Shown in pieces: positions 1,470-9,081 of a stretch of DNA of 64,000 bases. The DNA lies in sequence record PZ154895.1; one strand, 5' to 3'. Positions within the stretch are counted from its first letter, which is position 1, and the number at the start of each line of letters is the position of its first letter. The notes under the pieces were generated by a model, which saw only the letters and a list, made by a program, of their open reading frames with translations, searched no databases and was not told where the DNA came from. Origin of the DNA: a phage. The position numbers were made by a program, and so were the translations under genes.

Positions 1470-1829
1470 ATGGCGGAAAATATGAACTTTAATTATTACC
1501 CTATTCTATTAGAAAAAGACGCGAAACAACCAAAATGGCAGGGTCCTCAGTTTATTAAAGGCGTCTATCAATTAGTAGTTCCTAAAGACAAGATTTATAG
1601 CAGTTGTTTCACTGAATCCGCTTGTAGTATTTTCGGTAATAGTTCTCCGTATTGGAATTTTGATATAAAACTAGATAGAAATATCGATATTTGGTTGAAA
1701 GCTATGGATATTGGCAATATCACGTTTGATGAGAATAATTATCATATTATTGGTCGTTTTTCCAAACGTGGTAAAGAATTATATTTCACGCCTGAAATTG
1801 AAAGAAAATTTGATGCTAAACCGTATTGA
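1470..1829 (+). CDS. hypothetical protein (119 aa) occupying an insertion between frd and td
   Basis: ORF lies between frd stop and td start; no recognisable motif; start could also be the ATG at 1482. Confidence 0.5.
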   Translation: MAENMNFNYYPILLEKDAKQPKWQGPQFIKGVYQLVVPKDKIYSSCFTESACSIFGNSSPYWNFDIKLDRNIDIWLKAMDIGNITFDENNYHIIGRFSKRGKELYFTPEIERKFDAKPY

Positions 1830-1874: not shown

Positions 1875-2735
1875 ATGAAACAATACCAAGATTTAATTAA
1901 AGACATTTTTGAAAATGGCTATGAAACCGATGACCGAACAGGCATAGGAACAATTGCTTTGTTCGGTACTAAATTACGCTGGGATTTAACTAAAGGTTTT
2001 CCTGCAGTAACGACTAAGAAGCTCGCCTGGAAAGCTTGCATTGCTGAGCTCCTTTGGTTTTTATCAGGAAGCACAAATGTTAATGATTTACGATTAATTC
2101 AACATGATTCATTAATTCAAGGCAAAACAGTCTGGGATGAAAATTACGAAAATCAAGCAAAAGATTTAGGATATCATAGTGGTGAACTTGGTCCAATTTA
2201 TGGAAAACAGTGGCGTGATTTTGGTGGTGTAGACCAAATTGTAGAAGTTATTAATCGTATTAAAAAACTACCAAATGATAGGCGACAAATTGTTTCTGCA
2301 TGGAATCCAGCTGAACTTAAATATATGGCATTACCGCCTTGTCATATGTTCTATCAGTTTAATGTGCGTAATGGCTATTTGGATTTGCAGTGGTATCAAC
2401 GTTCGGTAGATGTTTTTCTTGGTCTTCCATTTAATATTGCATCATATGCTGCGTTAGTTCATATTGTAGCTAAGATGTGTAATCTTATTCCAGGAGATTT
2501 GATATTTTCTGGCGGTAATACTCATATCTATATGAATCACGTAGAACAATGTAAAGAAATTTTGCGTCGTGAACCTATGGATTTGTGCGAATTACAATTA
2601 AAATTTCCAGATGAATTTGATGAATGGGACACAGAATCTCAGGTATTTTGGTTGAGTCAATTCGCAAAGCCGCATAATTTTGTTCTTAACAACTATGTAT
2701 CTCATCCGCCAATTAAAGGAAAAATGGCGGTGTAA
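1875..2735 (+). CDS. td: thymidylate synthase (uninterrupted, no intron)
   Basis: 286 aa continuous ORF; MKQYQDLIKDIFENGYETDDRTGIGT... recognised as T4-type TS; active-site region PPCH present. Confidence 0.93.
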   Translation: MKQYQDLIKDIFENGYETDDRTGIGTIALFGTKLRWDLTKGFPAVTTKKLAWKACIAELLWFLSGSTNVNDLRLIQHDSLIQGKTVWDENYENQAKDLGYHSGELGPIYGKQWRDFGGVDQIVEVINRIKKLPNDRRQIVSAWNPAELKYMALPPCHMFYQFNVRNGYLDLQWYQRSVDVFLGLPFNIASYAALVHIVAKMCNLIPGDLIFSGGNTHIYMNHVEQCKEILRREPMDLCELQLKFPDEFDEWDTESQVFWLSQFAKPHNFVLNNYVSHPPIKGKMAV

Positions 2736-2758: not shown

Positions 2759-3022
2759 ATGATTTTACGATTTAAAGATACTTCTGGTGTCGTTCTTTTT
2801 ACACTTCCTAATCCAAGCGAGTTAGAAGTTCCAGGACCAGAACAGCCTATTATCATTTATGGCAAAAAATATTATACTCATAAAATGACTCGTGAGTATT
2901 TTGATAATAAAATTTCCACAGTTAAAACTTCTTCTGATTGCTATTATGATATTACTGTTTTAACGGAAAAACAATATGACGAACTATTACCGCGCGGGCC
3001 GTCTATGCCGGGTAGTGAATAA
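2759..3022 (+). CDS. hypothetical small protein (87 aa)
   Basis: ORF with GAGGA RBS between td and nrdA. Confidence 0.45.
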
Positions 3023-3302
3023 ATATAAATCCGACTTTGATGTTAATATTCACCGTGGTACATTTTGGGGAAATTACGTCGGTAAAGATGCTGGCAGCCG
3101 GGAGGCTGCCATTGAATTATTCAAAAAAGATTTTATACGTCGAATTAAATCCGGAGAAATAACTAAAGCACATTTAGAGCCTTTGCGTGGAATGAGGCTA
3201 GGATGCACATGTAAACCAAAGCCATGTCATGGTGATATAATAGCTCATATAGTTAACCGATTGTTTAAAGACGATTTTCAAGTTGAGGACTTATGCAATT
3301 AA
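2976..3302 (+). CDS. hypothetical protein with C-x-C-x5-C-H cluster (DUF4326-like, from memory)
   Basis: 108 aa; GNYVG ... [13 protein letters not shown] motif; overlaps neighbours at both ends. Confidence 0.5.
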
Positions 3303-5557
3303 TTAATGTTATCAAAAGTAGTGGTGTTTCTCAGAGCTTTGACCCGCAAAAAATTATTAAAGTTTTATCTTGGGCAGCTGAAGGAACATCTGTAGATCCT
3401 TATGAATTATATGAAAATATTAAATCATATCTCCGTGATGGAATGACAACTGATGACATTCAAACCATTGTAATTAAGGCTGCTGCGAATTCTATTTCGG
3501 TTGAAGAGCCTGATTATCAATACGTAGCTGCACGGTGTTTAATGTTTGCTCTTCGTAAGCATGTTTACGGACAATATGAACCACGTTCATTTATTGACCA
3601 TATTTCTTACTGTGTAAATGAAGGTAAATATGACCCTGAACTGCTGTCAAAATATTCAGCAGAAGAAATTACATTTTTAGAATCAAAAATTAAGCACGAG
3701 CGGGATATGGAATTTACTTATTCCGGGGCGATGCAATTAAAAGAAAAATATCTCGTTAAAGATAAAACCACTGGTCAAATTTATGAAACTCCGCAGTTTG
3801 CATTTATGACTATTGGAATGGCATTGCATCAAGATGAACCTGTTGATAGATTAAAACACGTTATTCGTTTTTATGAAGCAGTATCTACTCGACAGATTTC
3901 ATTACCAACTCCTATTATGGCTGGTTGTCGTACTCCAACTCGACAGTTTAGTTCATGCGTTGTTATTGAAGCAGGTGATTCGCTGAAGTCTATCAATAAG
4001 GCTTCTGCTTCAATTGTTGAGTATATTTCTAAACGAGCTGGAATTGGCATTAACGTTGGTATGATTCGTGCTGAAGGTTCTAAGATTGGCACAGGTGAAG
4101 TACGTCATACTGGTGTTATTCCTTTTTGGAAACATTTTCAGACTGCTGTTAAATCATGCTCACAGGGTGGAATTCGTGGCGGCGCTGCTACTGCTTATTA
4201 TCCTATTTGGCATTTGGAAGTTGAAAATCTTCTCGTTTTGAAAAATAACAAAGGCGTAGAAGAAAACCGTATTCGTCATATGGATTATGGCGTCCAGCTG
4301 AATGACCTAATGATGGAACGTTTTGGAAAGAACGATTACATTACTTTGTTTAGTCCGCATGAAATGGGTGGCGAACTTTATTATTCTTATTTTAAAGACC
4401 AAGACCGTTTCCGTGAATTATACGAAGCCGCAGAAAAAGACCCTAATATTCGTAAAAAGCGTATTAAAGCCCGTGAACTGTTTGAATTGCTCATGACTGA
4501 ACGCTCAGGAACAGCAAGGATTTATGTGCAGTTCATTGATAATACGAATAACTATACTCCGTTTATTCGTGAAAAGGCACCTATTCGTCAGAGCAACTTG
4601 TGTTGTGAAATTGCTATTCCAACAAATGATGTGAATAGTCCTGATGCCGAAATTGGATTGTGCACGTTATCTGCATTTGTGTTGGATAACTTCGATTGGC
4701 AAGACCAAGATAAAATTAATGAATTAGCAGAAGTTCAAGTTCGTGCTCTTGATAATCTTTTGGATTACCAAGGATATCCAGTTCCTGAAGCAGAAAAAGC
4801 TAAAAAGCGTCGAAATCTTGGTGTAGGTGTTACTAACTATGCAGCTTGGCTGGCAAGTAACTTTGCTTCTTATGAAGATGCTAACGATTTAACACATGAA
4901 CTATTTGAGAGACTACAGTATGGACTCATTAAAGCATCCATTAAGCTCGCCAAAGAAAAAGGACCTTGCGAATATTATTCAGACACTCGTTGGTCTCGAG
5001 GCGAATTACCTATCGACTGGTACAATAAAAAGATTGACCAAATCGCAGCTCCAAAATACGTTTGTGACTGGTCGTCGCTGCGGGAAGACCTTAAGCTCTT
5101 TGGCATCCGTAATAGCACATTATCAGCACTTATGCCATGTGAGTCATCTTCCCAAGTTTCTAACAGTACAAACGGTATCGAGCCTCCACGTGGACCAGTC
5201 TCGGTTAAAGAATCAAAAGAGGGTTCCTTTAATCAAGTCGTGCCCAATATTGAACATAACATAGACCTATATGATTATACATGGAAATTAGCTAAGAAAG
5301 GTAATAAACCTTATCTTACGCAAGTAGCTATTATGCTTAAATGGGTATGTCAATCAGCTTCAGCAAATACATATTATGACCCGCAGATTTTTCCAAAAGG
5401 AAAGGTTCCAATGTCAATAATGATTGATGACATGCTATACGGATGGTATTATGGCATTAAAAACTTCTATTATCATAATACTCGTGATGGTTCCGGTACT
5501 GATGATTACGAAATAGAAACTCCAAAAGCCGATGATTGCGCAGCGTGTAAATTGTAA
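3293..5557 (+). CDS. nrdA: aerobic ribonucleotide reductase large subunit
   Basis: 754 aa, same length as T4 NrdA; ATP-cone-like N-terminus; class I RNR large subunit context with nrdB downstream. Confidence 0.93.
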   Translation: MQLINVIKSSGVSQSFDPQKIIKVLSWAAEGTSVDPYELYENIKSYLRDGMTTDDIQTIVIKAAANSISVEEPDYQYVAARCLMFALRKHVYGQYEPRSFIDHISYCVNEGKYDPELLSKYSAEEITFLESKIKHERDMEFTYSGAMQLKEKYLVKDKTTGQIYETPQFAFMTIGMALHQDEPVDRLKHVIRFYEAVSTRQISLPTPIMAGCRTPTRQFSSCVVIEAGDSLKSINKASASIVEYISKRAGIGINVGMIRAEGSKIGTGEVRHTGVIPFWKHFQTAVKSCSQGGIRGGAATAYYPIWHLEVENLLVLKNNKGVEENRIRHMDYGVQLNDLMMERFGKNDYITLFSPHEMGGELYYSYFKDQDRFRELYEAAEKDPNIRKKRIKARELFELLMTERSGTARIYVQFIDNTNNYTPFIREKAPIRQSNLCCEIAIPTNDVNSPDAEIGLCTLSAFVLDNFDWQDQDKINELAEVQVRALDNLLDYQGYPVPEAEKAKKRRNLGVGVTNYAAWLASNFASYEDANDLTHELFERLQYGLIKASIKLAKEKGPCEYYSDTRWSRGELPIDWYNKKIDQIAAPKYVCDWSSLREDLKLFGIRNSTLSALMPCESSSQVSNSTNGIEPPRGPVSVKESKEGSFNQVVPNIEHNIDLYDYTWKLAKKGNKPYLTQVAIMLKWVCQSASANTYYDPQIFPKGKVPMSIMIDDMLYGWYYGIKNFYYHNTRDGSGTDDYEIETPKADDCAACKL

Positions 5558-6288
5558 TGAATTATCAAAAAATCTATAACGACCTAATTTCCCGAGCTCA
5601 GGCTCGGGAATCTTTATCAGAATATAAAGAGACACATCATATAATCCCTAGATGTATGGGAGGTTCTGATGATAAGGAAAATTTAGTTGAATTAACAGCC
5701 AGAGAACATTTTATAGCTCATCTACTACTATGTAAGATAAATGAAGGCCATTTTGGGCTTGCCTCTGCGTTAACGTTAATGGCAACAGATAAAGCTGGCA
5801 ATAGAATTAATAACAGATTGTACAGCTTACACAGAAAATTATTTGCTAAAGCTAATTCTGAGTTCTTTAAGAAATATTGGAAAAATAATCCTCATCCTAA
5901 AGGAATGTTAGGCAAGCACCATAAAAACGAAACTAAAGAGCATGTATCAAACGTGAATAGATATGCATGCCCATCTATAGAAATACATAAATTCTCATTA
6001 GATGGGGATTTCATAGAAACCTTTCACTCTATTGCGGCAGCGTCCCGGTCAGTTAATGGAAACGGGTCAAATATCAAATATTGTGCCGAGGGTAAATTTC
6101 AATATGCTTATGGATTTAGATGGTCATATCAACTTGATGCAAAGTTTGACAAAATAAAACCAAGAGATTATAAAGGAATCCGCGGTAAGAAATGGATTAA
6201 TAATGGAAGTGAATGCACGCTTATAGGTAAAGATGATATTATACCGCCAGGTTGGAATCACGGCAGAATTTTAAAGAGGAAAAATTAA
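5557..6288 (+). CDS. mobE: HNH homing endonuclease between nrdA and nrdB
   Basis: 243 aa; HNH motif HHIIPRCMGGSDDKENLVELTAREH; position matches T4 mobE between nrdA and nrdB. Confidence 0.75.
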   Translation: MNYQKIYNDLISRAQARESLSEYKETHHIIPRCMGGSDDKENLVELTAREHFIAHLLLCKINEGHFGLASALTLMATDKAGNRINNRLYSLHRKLFAKANSEFFKKYWKNNPHPKGMLGKHHKNETKEHVSNVNRYACPSIEIHKFSLDGDFIETFHSIAAASRSVNGNGSNIKYCAEGKFQYAYGFRWSYQLDAKFDKIKPRDYKGIRGKKWINNGSECTLIGKDDIIPPGWNHGRILKRKN

Positions 6289-7466: not shown

Positions 7467-7471
7467 GGAGT

Positions 7472-7491
7472 GGGCCGCAAGGCCCATTTTA
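7472..7491 (+). terminator. rho-independent terminator after nrdB
   Basis: hairpin gggccgcaaggccc followed by atttt. Confidence 0.6.
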
Positions 7492-7493
7492 TT

Positions 7494-9081
<1,588 letters not shown>

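What the first reader, a model, noticed from the sequence alone, without database searches (positions are those of the whole stretch)
2976..3302. Small Cys/His-cluster protein overlapping the nrdA start
This 108-aa ORF carries GNYVG followed by [13 protein letters not shown] (C-x-C-x5-C-H), which looks like a conserved metal-binding signature. From memory it resembles the uncharacterised phage-associated family catalogued as DUF4326. It overlaps the upstream ORF and the nrdA start, so it is co-expressed with the nucleotide-metabolism cluster.
Basis: partly seen in the sequence, partly recalled or inferred. Interest (0 to 1): 0.4.

Follow-up and report, generated by a model that had tools for sequence, protein, structure and literature searches.

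The report
Phage T4 nrdA.1 gene (DUF4326)
This small open reading frame is the well-known but functionally uncharacterised phage T4 gene nrdA.1, a stand-alone DUF4326 domain whose conserved cysteine/histidine loop is the family signature; it is real and expressed, but nothing about it here is new.

Summary
A 108-aa ORF lies at 2976-3302 (+). It overlaps the upstream ORF by 47 nt and the nrdA start by 10 nt, and it carries WGNYVG and [13 protein letters not shown]. The spacing is C-x-C-x4-C-H, not x5.

The window is a T4-like (Tequatrovirus) phage. The ORF is 97% identical to T4 NrdA.1 and sits in the same gene order with the same overlaps. It matches Pfam DUF4326 over the full model (78.7 bits against a cut-off of 25).

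The family is very large: 10,205 50%-identity cluster representatives. It occurs in phages, archaeal viruses, giant viruses, bacteria and archaea. C77, C79, C84 and H85 are essentially invariant across it, as are N15, D22, R27, N33 and D87.

Published T4 data show that the protein is made in the same temporal class as NrdA and NrdB. They also show that it is dispensable in the laboratory.

Linkage to ribonucleotide reductase is specific to a few phage lineages. The family-wide partners are SLOG, NADAR and Macro domain fusions and a neighbouring DUF488 gene.

The best reading is a small cysteine-loop enzyme acting on ribose-linked phosphate of nucleotide- or ADP-ribose-derived substrates. That matches an existing published prediction. 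Zinc binding is neither shown nor excluded.

Verdict: a known gene in a known family, of low interest.

The parts
2976..3302 (+). nrdA.1 orthologue: 108-aa stand-alone DUF4326 protein (stop codon included)
   Evidence: ORF list and sequence. Pfam PF14216 at E=5.5e-22. PHROG 464 at E=1.2e-48. 97.2% identical to T4 (H30). T4 gene T4p235 has the same length and the same overlaps.
3006..3020 (+). First beta-strand, C11-R-V-V-N15. V14 and N15 are conserved family-wide. C11 is conserved only in the T4-like group.
   Evidence: AlphaFold2 model has a strand at 12-15. Conservation tables.
3066..3083 (+). W31-G-N-Y-V-G36 loop. G32 and N33 are nearly invariant. Y34 replaces the proline found in more than 90% of the family.
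3198..3236 (+). Signature loop L75-G-C77-T-C79-K-P81-K-P-C84-H85-G86-D87. It runs from the end of strand 74-77, through the loop, to the start of helix 85-96.
   Evidence: Sequence. Model secondary structure. C77 154/154, C79 152/154, P81 152/154, C84 154/154, H85 153/154, G86 145/154, D87 143/154.
2976..3022 (+). 47-nt overlap with the 3' end of the upstream ORF (2759-3022, DUF5496, the nrdA.2 orthologue)
   Evidence: Pfam DUF5496 at E=1.6e-60. T4 has the same overlap, 142951-142997.
3285..3302 (+). nrdA ribosome-binding site GAGGA (3285-3289) and nrdA ATG (3293) lie inside the last codons of the ORF. The overlap is 10 nt, ending at the TAA stop (3300-3302).
   Evidence: Sequence. nrdA ORF 3293-5557. 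T4 has the same overlap, 142671-142680.

Best explanation
The ORF is the orthologue of bacteriophage T4 gene nrdA.1. It is a stand-alone DUF4326 domain, transcribed with the frd-td-nrdA early nucleotide-metabolism block and packed tightly between nrdA.2 and nrdA.

Shown: it is a real, conserved, expressed and non-essential gene.

Inferred: the protein is a small alpha/beta enzyme. Its conserved loop, C77-x-C79-K-P-x-x-C84-H85-G-D87, lies between a beta-strand and the N-terminus of a helix. That is the geometry of the cysteine active-site loop of rhodanese/tyrosine-phosphatase-type enzymes, to which the RapZ-C/DUF488/DUF4326 group has been assigned in the literature. In this reading, a cysteine thiolate (most likely C77 or C79) attacks or transfers a phosphate carried on a ribose. 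R27 and R42 would hold the phosphate, and H85, D87 and D22 would act in acid/base steps.

The likely substrates are nucleotide- or NAD+/ADP-ribose-derived molecules. Across the family the domain is repeatedly fused to SLOG, NADAR and Macro domains, which cleave or bind such molecules, and occasionally to TIR domains.

In T4-like phages the domain works alone. It is most likely an accessory enzyme for counter-defence or nucleotide salvage, not a subunit or obligatory cofactor of ribonucleotide reductase.

Confidence is about 0.98 for the identity (T4 nrdA.1, DUF4326) and about 0.35-0.4 for the mechanism.
For: Identity:
- Pfam DUF4326 at 78.7 bits and PHROG 464.
- 502 of 514 matching phage records are 95-99% identical in DNA.
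- 97.2% protein identity to T4, and RB14 annotates the gene as nrdA.1.
- T4 coordinates show the same overlaps.

Expression and dispensability:
- T4 NrdA.1 is classed 'early RNA, late protein', like nrdA, nrdB and rnlA (PMC9697503 supplement).
- The CRISPRi-ART knock-down score is -0.116, 'Not Fit' (PMC11879866 supplement).
- No terminator-like site lies between td and nrdA.

Enzyme-like conservation:
- N15, D22, R27, G32, N33, C77, C79, P81, C84, H85, G86 and D87 are each kept in at least 90% of 154 diverse domains, and R42 in 84%.

Fold:
- The model is confident (pLDDT 88.8), with strand 74-77, then the loop, then helix 85-96.
- DUF488-N3a is the only recurrent secondary Pfam hit, in 17 of 91 members.
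- A DUF488 profile built here picks this ORF as its best hit in the six-frame window, at E=0.052.

Associations:
- Of the 40 longest of the 150 best representatives (190 aa or more), 7 carry mSLOG, 6 YAcAr, 4 DprA-like, 5 NADAR (plus 1 NADAR-DarT1 match), 1 Macro and 1 TIR.
- Of 58 long ORFs in cellular genomes, 28 are mSLOG-DUF4326 fusions.
- A DUF488 gene lies next to such fusions in 17 cellular and 2 viral loci.

Literature:
- The Aravind group places DUF4326 in the rhodanese-phosphatase superfamily and proposes that it processes terminal phosphates on ribose in ADP-ribose derivatives (PMC9503650; PMC7824862).
Against: - No biochemical activity is known for any DUF4326, DUF488 or RapZ-C-type protein acting as a cysteine phosphatase.
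- Profile-profile similarity to DUF488 is not significant: hhalign probability 6-21%.
- The arginine of the classical C-x5-R phosphatase loop is absent. G86 occupies that place.
- Three cysteines and a histidine within nine residues could equally form a metal site.
- T4-like phages carry the domain without any SLOG, NADAR or Macro partner in this window, so carrying the substrate inference over from fusion proteins is indirect.
- No anti-defence phenotype has been reported for nrdA.1. Two full-text searches found none.
Confidence: 0.4

Rival explanations
1. Zinc-binding (or other metal-binding) small protein. C77, C79, C84 and H85 coordinate a metal ion that either stabilises a protein- or nucleic-acid-binding module or serves as the catalytic metal of a hydrolase. 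It may include an interaction with ribonucleotide reductase.
For: Three Cys and one His are invariant within nine residues. The related DUF488 neighbours carry a loop that is also rich in metal-ligand residues, C-S-E-H-x-P-H-x-C-H-R. In T4-like phages the gene abuts nrdA and shares its temporal class.
Against: All four candidate ligands lie in one short loop, and two of them are adjacent (C84-H85). That is unusual for a tetrahedral structural site. C11, the extra Cys of the T4 group, is not conserved in the family and sits at the opposite end of strand 1. Many non-ligand polar residues are equally conserved. No zinc-finger family or fold was hit. The RNR linkage is lineage-specific.
Confidence: 0.2
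2. Nucleic-acid end-processing enzyme. The DUF4326 domain removes or transfers a phosphate at DNA or RNA termini, or at a 2'-phosphate or ADP-ribosylated site. It would act with the neighbouring T4 repair and cleavage genes (denA, rnlA, pseT) or against host nucleic-acid-targeting defences.
For: Some family members are fused to RNase H, RNA polymerase-like, SSB or DprA-like domains. In one phage the gene follows SbcCD. In Slopekvirus it lies between nrdB and denA/rnlA. NADAR partners are known to reverse ADP-ribosylation of DNA bases (established knowledge). From memory, the abstract of the 2023 Burroughs and Aravind paper predicts DNA-end processing for some members of this clade. That paper could not be read here.
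Against: Fusions to nucleic-acid enzymes are rare compared with SLOG and NADAR fusions. No nucleic-acid-binding fold or motif was detected in the 108-aa protein.
Confidence: 0.15
3. Thiol-redox helper of ribonucleotide reductase. The C-x-C and C-H cysteines shuttle reducing equivalents to NrdA, or protect it, in the manner of a glutaredoxin or NrdH.
For: The gene is adjacent to nrdA in T4-likes, lies after nrdB in Slopekvirus, and lies directly after a thioredoxin-like gene downstream of nrdB-nrdA in Aeromonas phage LAh_6. Nine of 116 viral loci have an RNR or Td homologue within about 1.2 kb.
Against: There is no CxxC motif and no thioredoxin-fold match. Most family members are nowhere near RNR. 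The dominant partners are SLOG, NADAR and DUF488, not redox proteins.
Confidence: 0.07

Closest known systems
Bacteriophage T4 NrdA.1 (gene T4p235, UniProt P32279)
   Same: 97.2% identical over all 108 residues. Same position between nrdA.2 and nrdA, with the same 47-nt and 10-nt overlaps. Same PHROG, 464.
   Different: Three amino-acid differences only. In this window td has no intron, but the nrdA.1 locus itself is the same.
Pfam DUF4326 (PF14216)
   Same: Full-length match well above threshold. All signature residues are present.
   Different: Y34 stands where more than 90% of members have proline (GNP becomes GNY). There is an extra N-terminal Cys (C11) typical of the T4-like subgroup. It is a solo domain, whereas many members are fused to SLOG or NADAR domains.
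DUF488 (PF04343 / PF22751) and the C-terminal domain of RapZ
Cysteine phosphatases and rhodaneses (C-x5-R loop enzymes: PTP, DUSP, Cdc25, rhodanese)
   Different: Much smaller, with only two clear strands. The loop is longer and has no arginine. There are three cysteines and a histidine instead of one cysteine. No significant structural or sequence match.
NADAR, Macro and SLOG/LOG enzymes of NAD+/ADP-ribose and nucleotide processing
   Same: They are the recurrent fusion partners of DUF4326, so they probably act in the same pathways.

Membership tests
Pfam DUF4326 (PF14216) | Score above the curated gathering threshold over most of the model | tested here: met
   78.7 bits against a cut-off of 25, E=5.5e-22. 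Residues 11-90 cover profile positions 1-81 of 82.
Pfam DUF4326 (PF14216) | Signature residues VVN ... D ... R ... WGN(P) ... LGC-x-C-x-P-x-x-CHGD | tested here: met
   All are present. In 154 diverse domains, C77 is kept in 154, C79 in 152, C84 in 154, H85 in 153 and N33 in 153. The only departure is Y34 in place of the usual proline.
T4 nrdA.1 orthologue group (PHROG 464) | High identity to T4 NrdA.1 and the same position and overlaps between nrdA.2 and nrdA | tested here: met
   97.2% identity to T4. PHROG 464 at E=1.2e-48. T4 coordinates are 142671-142997, against nrdA 140416-142680 and nrdA.2 142951-143214. These give the same overlaps as window 2976-3302, 3293 and 3022.
[quoted passage not shown] | Detectable sequence-profile relationship to DUF488 | tested here: inconclusive
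   17 of 91 members give weak hits to DUF488-N3a, best E=0.0017. hhalign probability is 21% and 6%. The DUF488 profile's best hit in the window is this ORF, at E=0.052.
[quoted passage not shown] | Structural similarity to RapZ-C or to cysteine phosphatases / rhodanese | tested here: inconclusive
Cysteine phosphatase / rhodanese type active site | Conserved cysteine at the C-terminal end of a beta-strand, followed by a loop and the N-terminus of a helix | tested here: met
   The model has strand 74-77 ending at C77, loop 78-84, and helix 85-96. C77 is invariant.
Cysteine phosphatase / rhodanese type active site | C-x5-R motif with the arginine at the helix start | tested here: not met
   The loop is C77-T-C-K-P-K-P-C-H85-G86. 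It contains no arginine, and G86 is kept in 145 of 154 domains.
Cysteine phosphatase / rhodanese type active site | Catalytic activity through a cysteinyl intermediate | not testable with these tools
   This needs biochemistry.
Zinc-binding Cys3His module | Four conserved metal ligands | tested here: inconclusive
   C77, C79, C84 and H85 are invariant. However, they lie in one nine-residue loop and C84 and H85 are adjacent. C11 is not conserved.
Zinc-binding Cys3His module | Bound metal | not testable with these tools
   This needs metal analysis of purified protein.
Ribonucleotide reductase accessory protein | Conserved gene linkage to RNR genes across lineages | tested here: not met
   The gene is adjacent to RNR genes in T4-likes, Slopekvirus and LAh_6. 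But only 12 of 116 viral loci have an RNR, Td or Frd homologue in flanks averaging 8.4 kb. Pfam RNR large-subunit domains matched 2, the small-subunit domain 1 and thymidylate synthase 3 of the 125 neighbouring proteins in 33 diverse loci. It is absent from the neighbourhood in four other phage families and in cellular genomes.
Thioredoxin/glutaredoxin-like redox proteins | CxxC motif in a thioredoxin fold | tested here: not met
   There is no CxxC, and no thioredoxin-family or fold match.

The most novel reading that the evidence does not exclude
T4 NrdA.1 and its many solo DUF4326 relatives are a new class of small cysteine-dependent enzymes. They would remove or transfer the ribose-linked phosphate of NAD+/ADP-ribose-derived molecules, such as immune signalling nucleotides or the products of SLOG/NADAR-type N-glycosidases. 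In that way they would serve as a widespread viral counter-defence factor shared by phages, archaeal viruses and giant viruses.
Probability: 0.2. Interest if true: 0.6.

Novelty: already known. Interest (0 to 1): 0.15.

Why it matters
The gene itself is a catalogued T4 gene in a catalogued Pfam family, so the finding adds nothing new to the map. The only wider point is that DUF4326 is one of the most widespread viral domains without a demonstrated activity: 10,205 cluster representatives across viruses of all three domains of life. The best-studied phage carries a solo copy that is expressed and dispensable. That makes T4 nrdA.1 a convenient entry point for testing the published prediction that this domain processes ribose-linked phosphates in NAD+/ADP-ribose conflict systems.

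Tried and rejected
- Sequence searches against PDB with the single protein, the T4-like profile and a diverse profile gave nothing significant.
- Foldseek against PDB gave nothing, with every E above 3.
- Foldseek against the BFVD viral structure library returned only other DUF4326 proteins.
- The afdb50 library was not available.
- NCBIfam gave no hit.
- The search for related loci with the diverse alignment failed because no stretch was conserved enough. It was replaced by a degenerate DNA motif scan, which proved highly specific: 116 of 120 viral loci and 115 of 120 cellular loci carry a true DUF4326 ORF.
- The key 2023 Burroughs and Aravind paper on the rhodanese-phosphatase superfamily is not held. 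What is said about it rests on two earlier papers from the same group and on memory of the abstract.
- The idea of a family-wide RNR linkage was tested and rejected.
- Profile-profile comparison with DUF488 was inconclusive.
- A search for SLOG or DUF488 partners in the 64-kb window found none.
- C11 as a fourth zinc ligand was considered and rejected, because it is not conserved in the family and lies at the far end of strand 1.
- A chance ORF was rejected on conservation.
- Literature searches for DUF4326, nrdA.1 and DUF488 found no experimental function.

Full report
**1. What is there**

The window is part of a T4-like phage genome. Its first 9 kb read as follows:
- frd (853-1461)
- td (1875-2735)
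- an 87-aa ORF (2759-3022)
- the target ORF (2976-3302)
- nrdA (3293-5557)
- an HNH/NUMOD1 ORF (5557-6288)
- nrdB (to 7466)
- a GIY-YIG ORF (7470-7904)
- RNA ligase 1 (7921-9081)

The target ORF is 108 aa, with ATG at 2976 and TAA at 3300-3302. It overlaps the upstream ORF by 47 nt and nrdA by 10 nt. The nrdA ribosome-binding site, GAGGA (3285-3289), lies inside its last codons. GNYVG is residues 32-36 and [13 protein letters not shown] is residues 75-87.

No terminator-like site lies between td and nrdA, and promoter-like matches are at chance level.

**2. Identity**

A 701-nt stretch around the ORF matches 514 phage records, 502 of them at 95-99% identity. Nearly all are Tequatrovirus phages of Escherichia, Shigella and Yersinia.

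The protein is 97.2% identical to the T4 protein. RB14 annotates the same gene as nrdA.1, flanked by nrdA.2 and nrdA. T4 coordinates from two published supplements show the same overlaps: nrdA 140416-142680, nrdA.1 142671-142997 and nrdA.2 142951-143214.

Pfam gives DUF4326 (PF14216) at 78.7 bits against a cut-off of 25, covering the whole model. The upstream ORF is DUF5496, that is NrdA.2. PHROGs gives phrog_464, 'unknown function'.

**3. How big and how conserved the family is**

- tblastn finds homologues in 1,946 phage records from many genera.
- A profile search of 1.84 billion cluster representatives finds 10,205 at E<=1e-3.
- Foldseek against predicted viral structures returns DUF4326 proteins of tailed phages, haloarchaeal viruses, pandoraviruses, pithoviruses and marseilleviruses.
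Of these, 116 viral and 115 cellular loci encode a true DUF4326 ORF, in very diverse bacteria and archaea.

In 36 T4-like homologues down to 45% identity, these residues are invariant: C11, V14, N15, D22, R27, G28, G32, N33, R74, G76, C77, C79, P81, C84, H85 and G86.

Across 154 domains from the 150 best representatives, conservation is as follows:
- C77 154, C79 152, C84 154, H85 153.
- N15, D22, R27, G32, N33, P81, G86 and D87 are each kept in at least 90%, and R42 in 84%.
- C11 is not a family feature: T in 66, C in 24.
- The T4 subgroup has Y34 where more than 90% of the family has proline.

**4. Structure**

AlphaFold2 with the T4-like alignment gives a confident model (pLDDT 88.8, pTM 0.81). 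Its elements are strand 12-15, helices 36-39, 42-59 and 64-70, strand 74-77, and helices 85-96 and 103-106. The Cys/His cluster is therefore the loop between the end of a strand (C77) and the start of a helix (H85).

These weak matches agree with the literature placement of DUF4326 in a rhodanese-phosphatase-type group with RapZ-C and DUF488. They do not prove it.

Direct tests of the DUF488 link were consistent but not significant:
- DUF488-N3a is the only recurrent secondary Pfam hit, in 17 of 91 members with best E=0.0017.
- hhalign probabilities are 21% and 6%.
- A DUF488 profile built here ranks this ORF first among all six-frame ORFs of the window, at E=0.052.
- The loops look alike: DUF488 has C-S-E-H-x-P-H-x-C-H-R and DUF4326 has [10 protein letters not shown].

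**5. Context and associations**

The link with ribonucleotide reductase is real in T4-likes. It recurs in Slopekvirus (td, nrdA, nrdB, DUF4326, denA) and in the unrelated Aeromonas phage LAh_6 (nrdB, nrdA, HNH, dam, thioredoxin-like, DUF4326).

It is not a family rule:
- KVP40 carries the gene elsewhere.
- Only 12 of 116 viral loci have an RNR, Td or Frd homologue in the held flanks, which average 8.4 kb.
- The two genes on either side in 33 diverse viral loci show no recurrent family: Td 3, RNR large subunit 2, RNase H 2, HNH 2.
- Four phages of other families place it after SbcCD, among tRNAs, or among unnamed early genes.

What does recur is domain fusion and one neighbour:
- Of the 40 longest of the 150 best representatives (190 aa or more), 7 carry mSLOG, 6 YAcAr, 4 DprA-like, 5 NADAR (plus 1 NADAR-DarT1 match), 1 Macro, 1 TIR and 1 RNase H.
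- Of 58 long DUF4326 ORFs in cellular genomes, 28 are mSLOG-DUF4326 fusions.
- The only recurrent immediate neighbour in 49 diverse cellular loci is DUF488, in 7 loci.
- By motif, a DUF488 gene lies beside the DUF4326 gene in 17 of the 115 cellular loci and in 2 viral loci, where the DUF4326 gene was confirmed as an mSLOG fusion.

The 64-kb window encodes no SLOG or DUF488 relative. In this phage the domain is truly solo.

**6. What is known from experiments and the literature**

In T4, NrdA.1 RNA and protein were both detected. The gene is classed 'early RNA, late protein', together with nrdA, nrdB, nrdB.1 and rnlA. nrdA.2 and td are 'early RNA, middle protein' (PMC9697503 supplement). This supports co-expression with nrdA.

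Genome-wide CRISPRi-ART knock-down scored nrdA.1 as 'Not Fit' (-0.116), as it did nrdA, nrdB, td and frd. The same study lists the gene as of unknown function (PMC11879866 supplement).

No paper in the library reports an activity for DUF4326, DUF488 or nrdA.1.

[quoted passage not shown] The dedicated 2023 paper (doi 10.1093/nargab/lqad029) is not held. From memory of its abstract, it defines a RapZ-C-DUF488-DUF4326 clade.

**7. Most likely mechanism**

Shown: this is a real, conserved, expressed and dispensable gene. It encodes a compact alpha/beta domain with an invariant Cys/His loop at a strand-to-helix junction, plus a set of invariant polar and basic residues.

Inferred: these residues form one pocket at the C-terminal ends of the strands. 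A cysteine thiolate (C77 or C79) acts on a phosphate carried by ribose, with R27 and R42 binding the phosphate and H85, D87 and D22 assisting.

The substrate class, nucleotide- or NAD+/ADP-ribose-derived molecules, is inferred from the partners. SLOG/LOG-type and NADAR enzymes cut N-glycosidic bonds of ribose-phosphate compounds, and Macro and TIR domains process or produce ADP-ribose derivatives (established knowledge of those families).

In T4-likes the solo enzyme probably serves counter-defence or nucleotide salvage. I put about 0.4 on this reading.

**8. Rivals**

- A metal site formed by C77, C79, C84 and H85, structural or catalytic: 0.2.
- Nucleic-acid end processing: 0.15.
- A thiol-redox helper of RNR: 0.07.

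The missing arginine of the classical C-x5-R loop means the protein should not be filed as a canonical cysteine phosphatase.

**9. Verdict**

The feature is the already catalogued T4 gene nrdA.1 in the already catalogued family DUF4326, for which a published computational prediction already exists. Novelty is 'already known' and interest is low. The residual value is that T4 nrdA.1 is a convenient model for finding the activity of a very widespread viral domain.

Noticed in passing
window 1875-2735: td (thymidylate synthase) is a single uninterrupted 286-aa ORF. In T4 the td gene spans 143235-145112 and contains the intron with I-TevI. In the closest DNA match, BYEP01, td is annotated in two pieces. 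This phage therefore lacks the td intron.
   Followed up: partly
window 1470-1829: A 119-aa ORF lies between frd and td and has no Pfam match. BYEP01 has a shorter unnamed ORF in the same place.
   Followed up: no
window 5557-6288: A 243-aa ORF with HNH and NUMOD1 domains lies between nrdA and nrdB, in the slot of the T4 MobE homing endonuclease. It begins at the last base of the nrdA stop codon (5557).
   Followed up: partly
window 7470-7904: A 144-aa GIY-YIG ORF follows nrdB and precedes RNA ligase 1 (7921-9081). This is the position of endonuclease II (denA) in T4-like phages.
   Followed up: partly
L247 3881-4267 (Escherichia phage VivaForever); PHROG 24867: Small DUF4326 proteins are labelled 'NrdA-like ribonucleotide reductase' in phrog_24867 and in at least one phage record. 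The label appears to be carried over from the gene name nrdA.1. These proteins are not ribonucleotide reductases.
   Followed up: partly
L017 297-1321, L095 819-1921, and 17 cellular loci (e.g. L154, L232, L174, L143): A conserved two-gene module: a DUF488 gene (loop C-S-E-H-x-P-H-x-C-H-R) lies directly next to, and often overlaps, a DUF4326 gene that was confirmed as an mSLOG fusion in the two viral loci. It occurs in diverse bacteria and in two viral contigs.
   Followed up: partly
window 3075-3077 (Y34): The T4 subgroup has GNY where more than 90% of the DUF4326 family has GNP. The T4-like group also has an invariant C11 where the family mostly has Thr. The significance is unknown.
   Followed up: no
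homologues P0072 (61 aa, phage HY03), P0046 and P0029 (87 aa); H28 (phage CHD2BS1, match in two pieces): Some T4-like phages carry truncated or frameshifted copies of nrdA.1. This fits with the gene being dispensable, although sequencing or annotation errors are also possible.
   Followed up: no
L001 3594-6701 (phage BYEP01): In the closest DNA match, nrdA is annotated in two pieces separated by a 711-nt ORF. In the window, nrdA is one intact 754-aa ORF. This is probably a mobile insertion in BYEP01.
   Followed up: no
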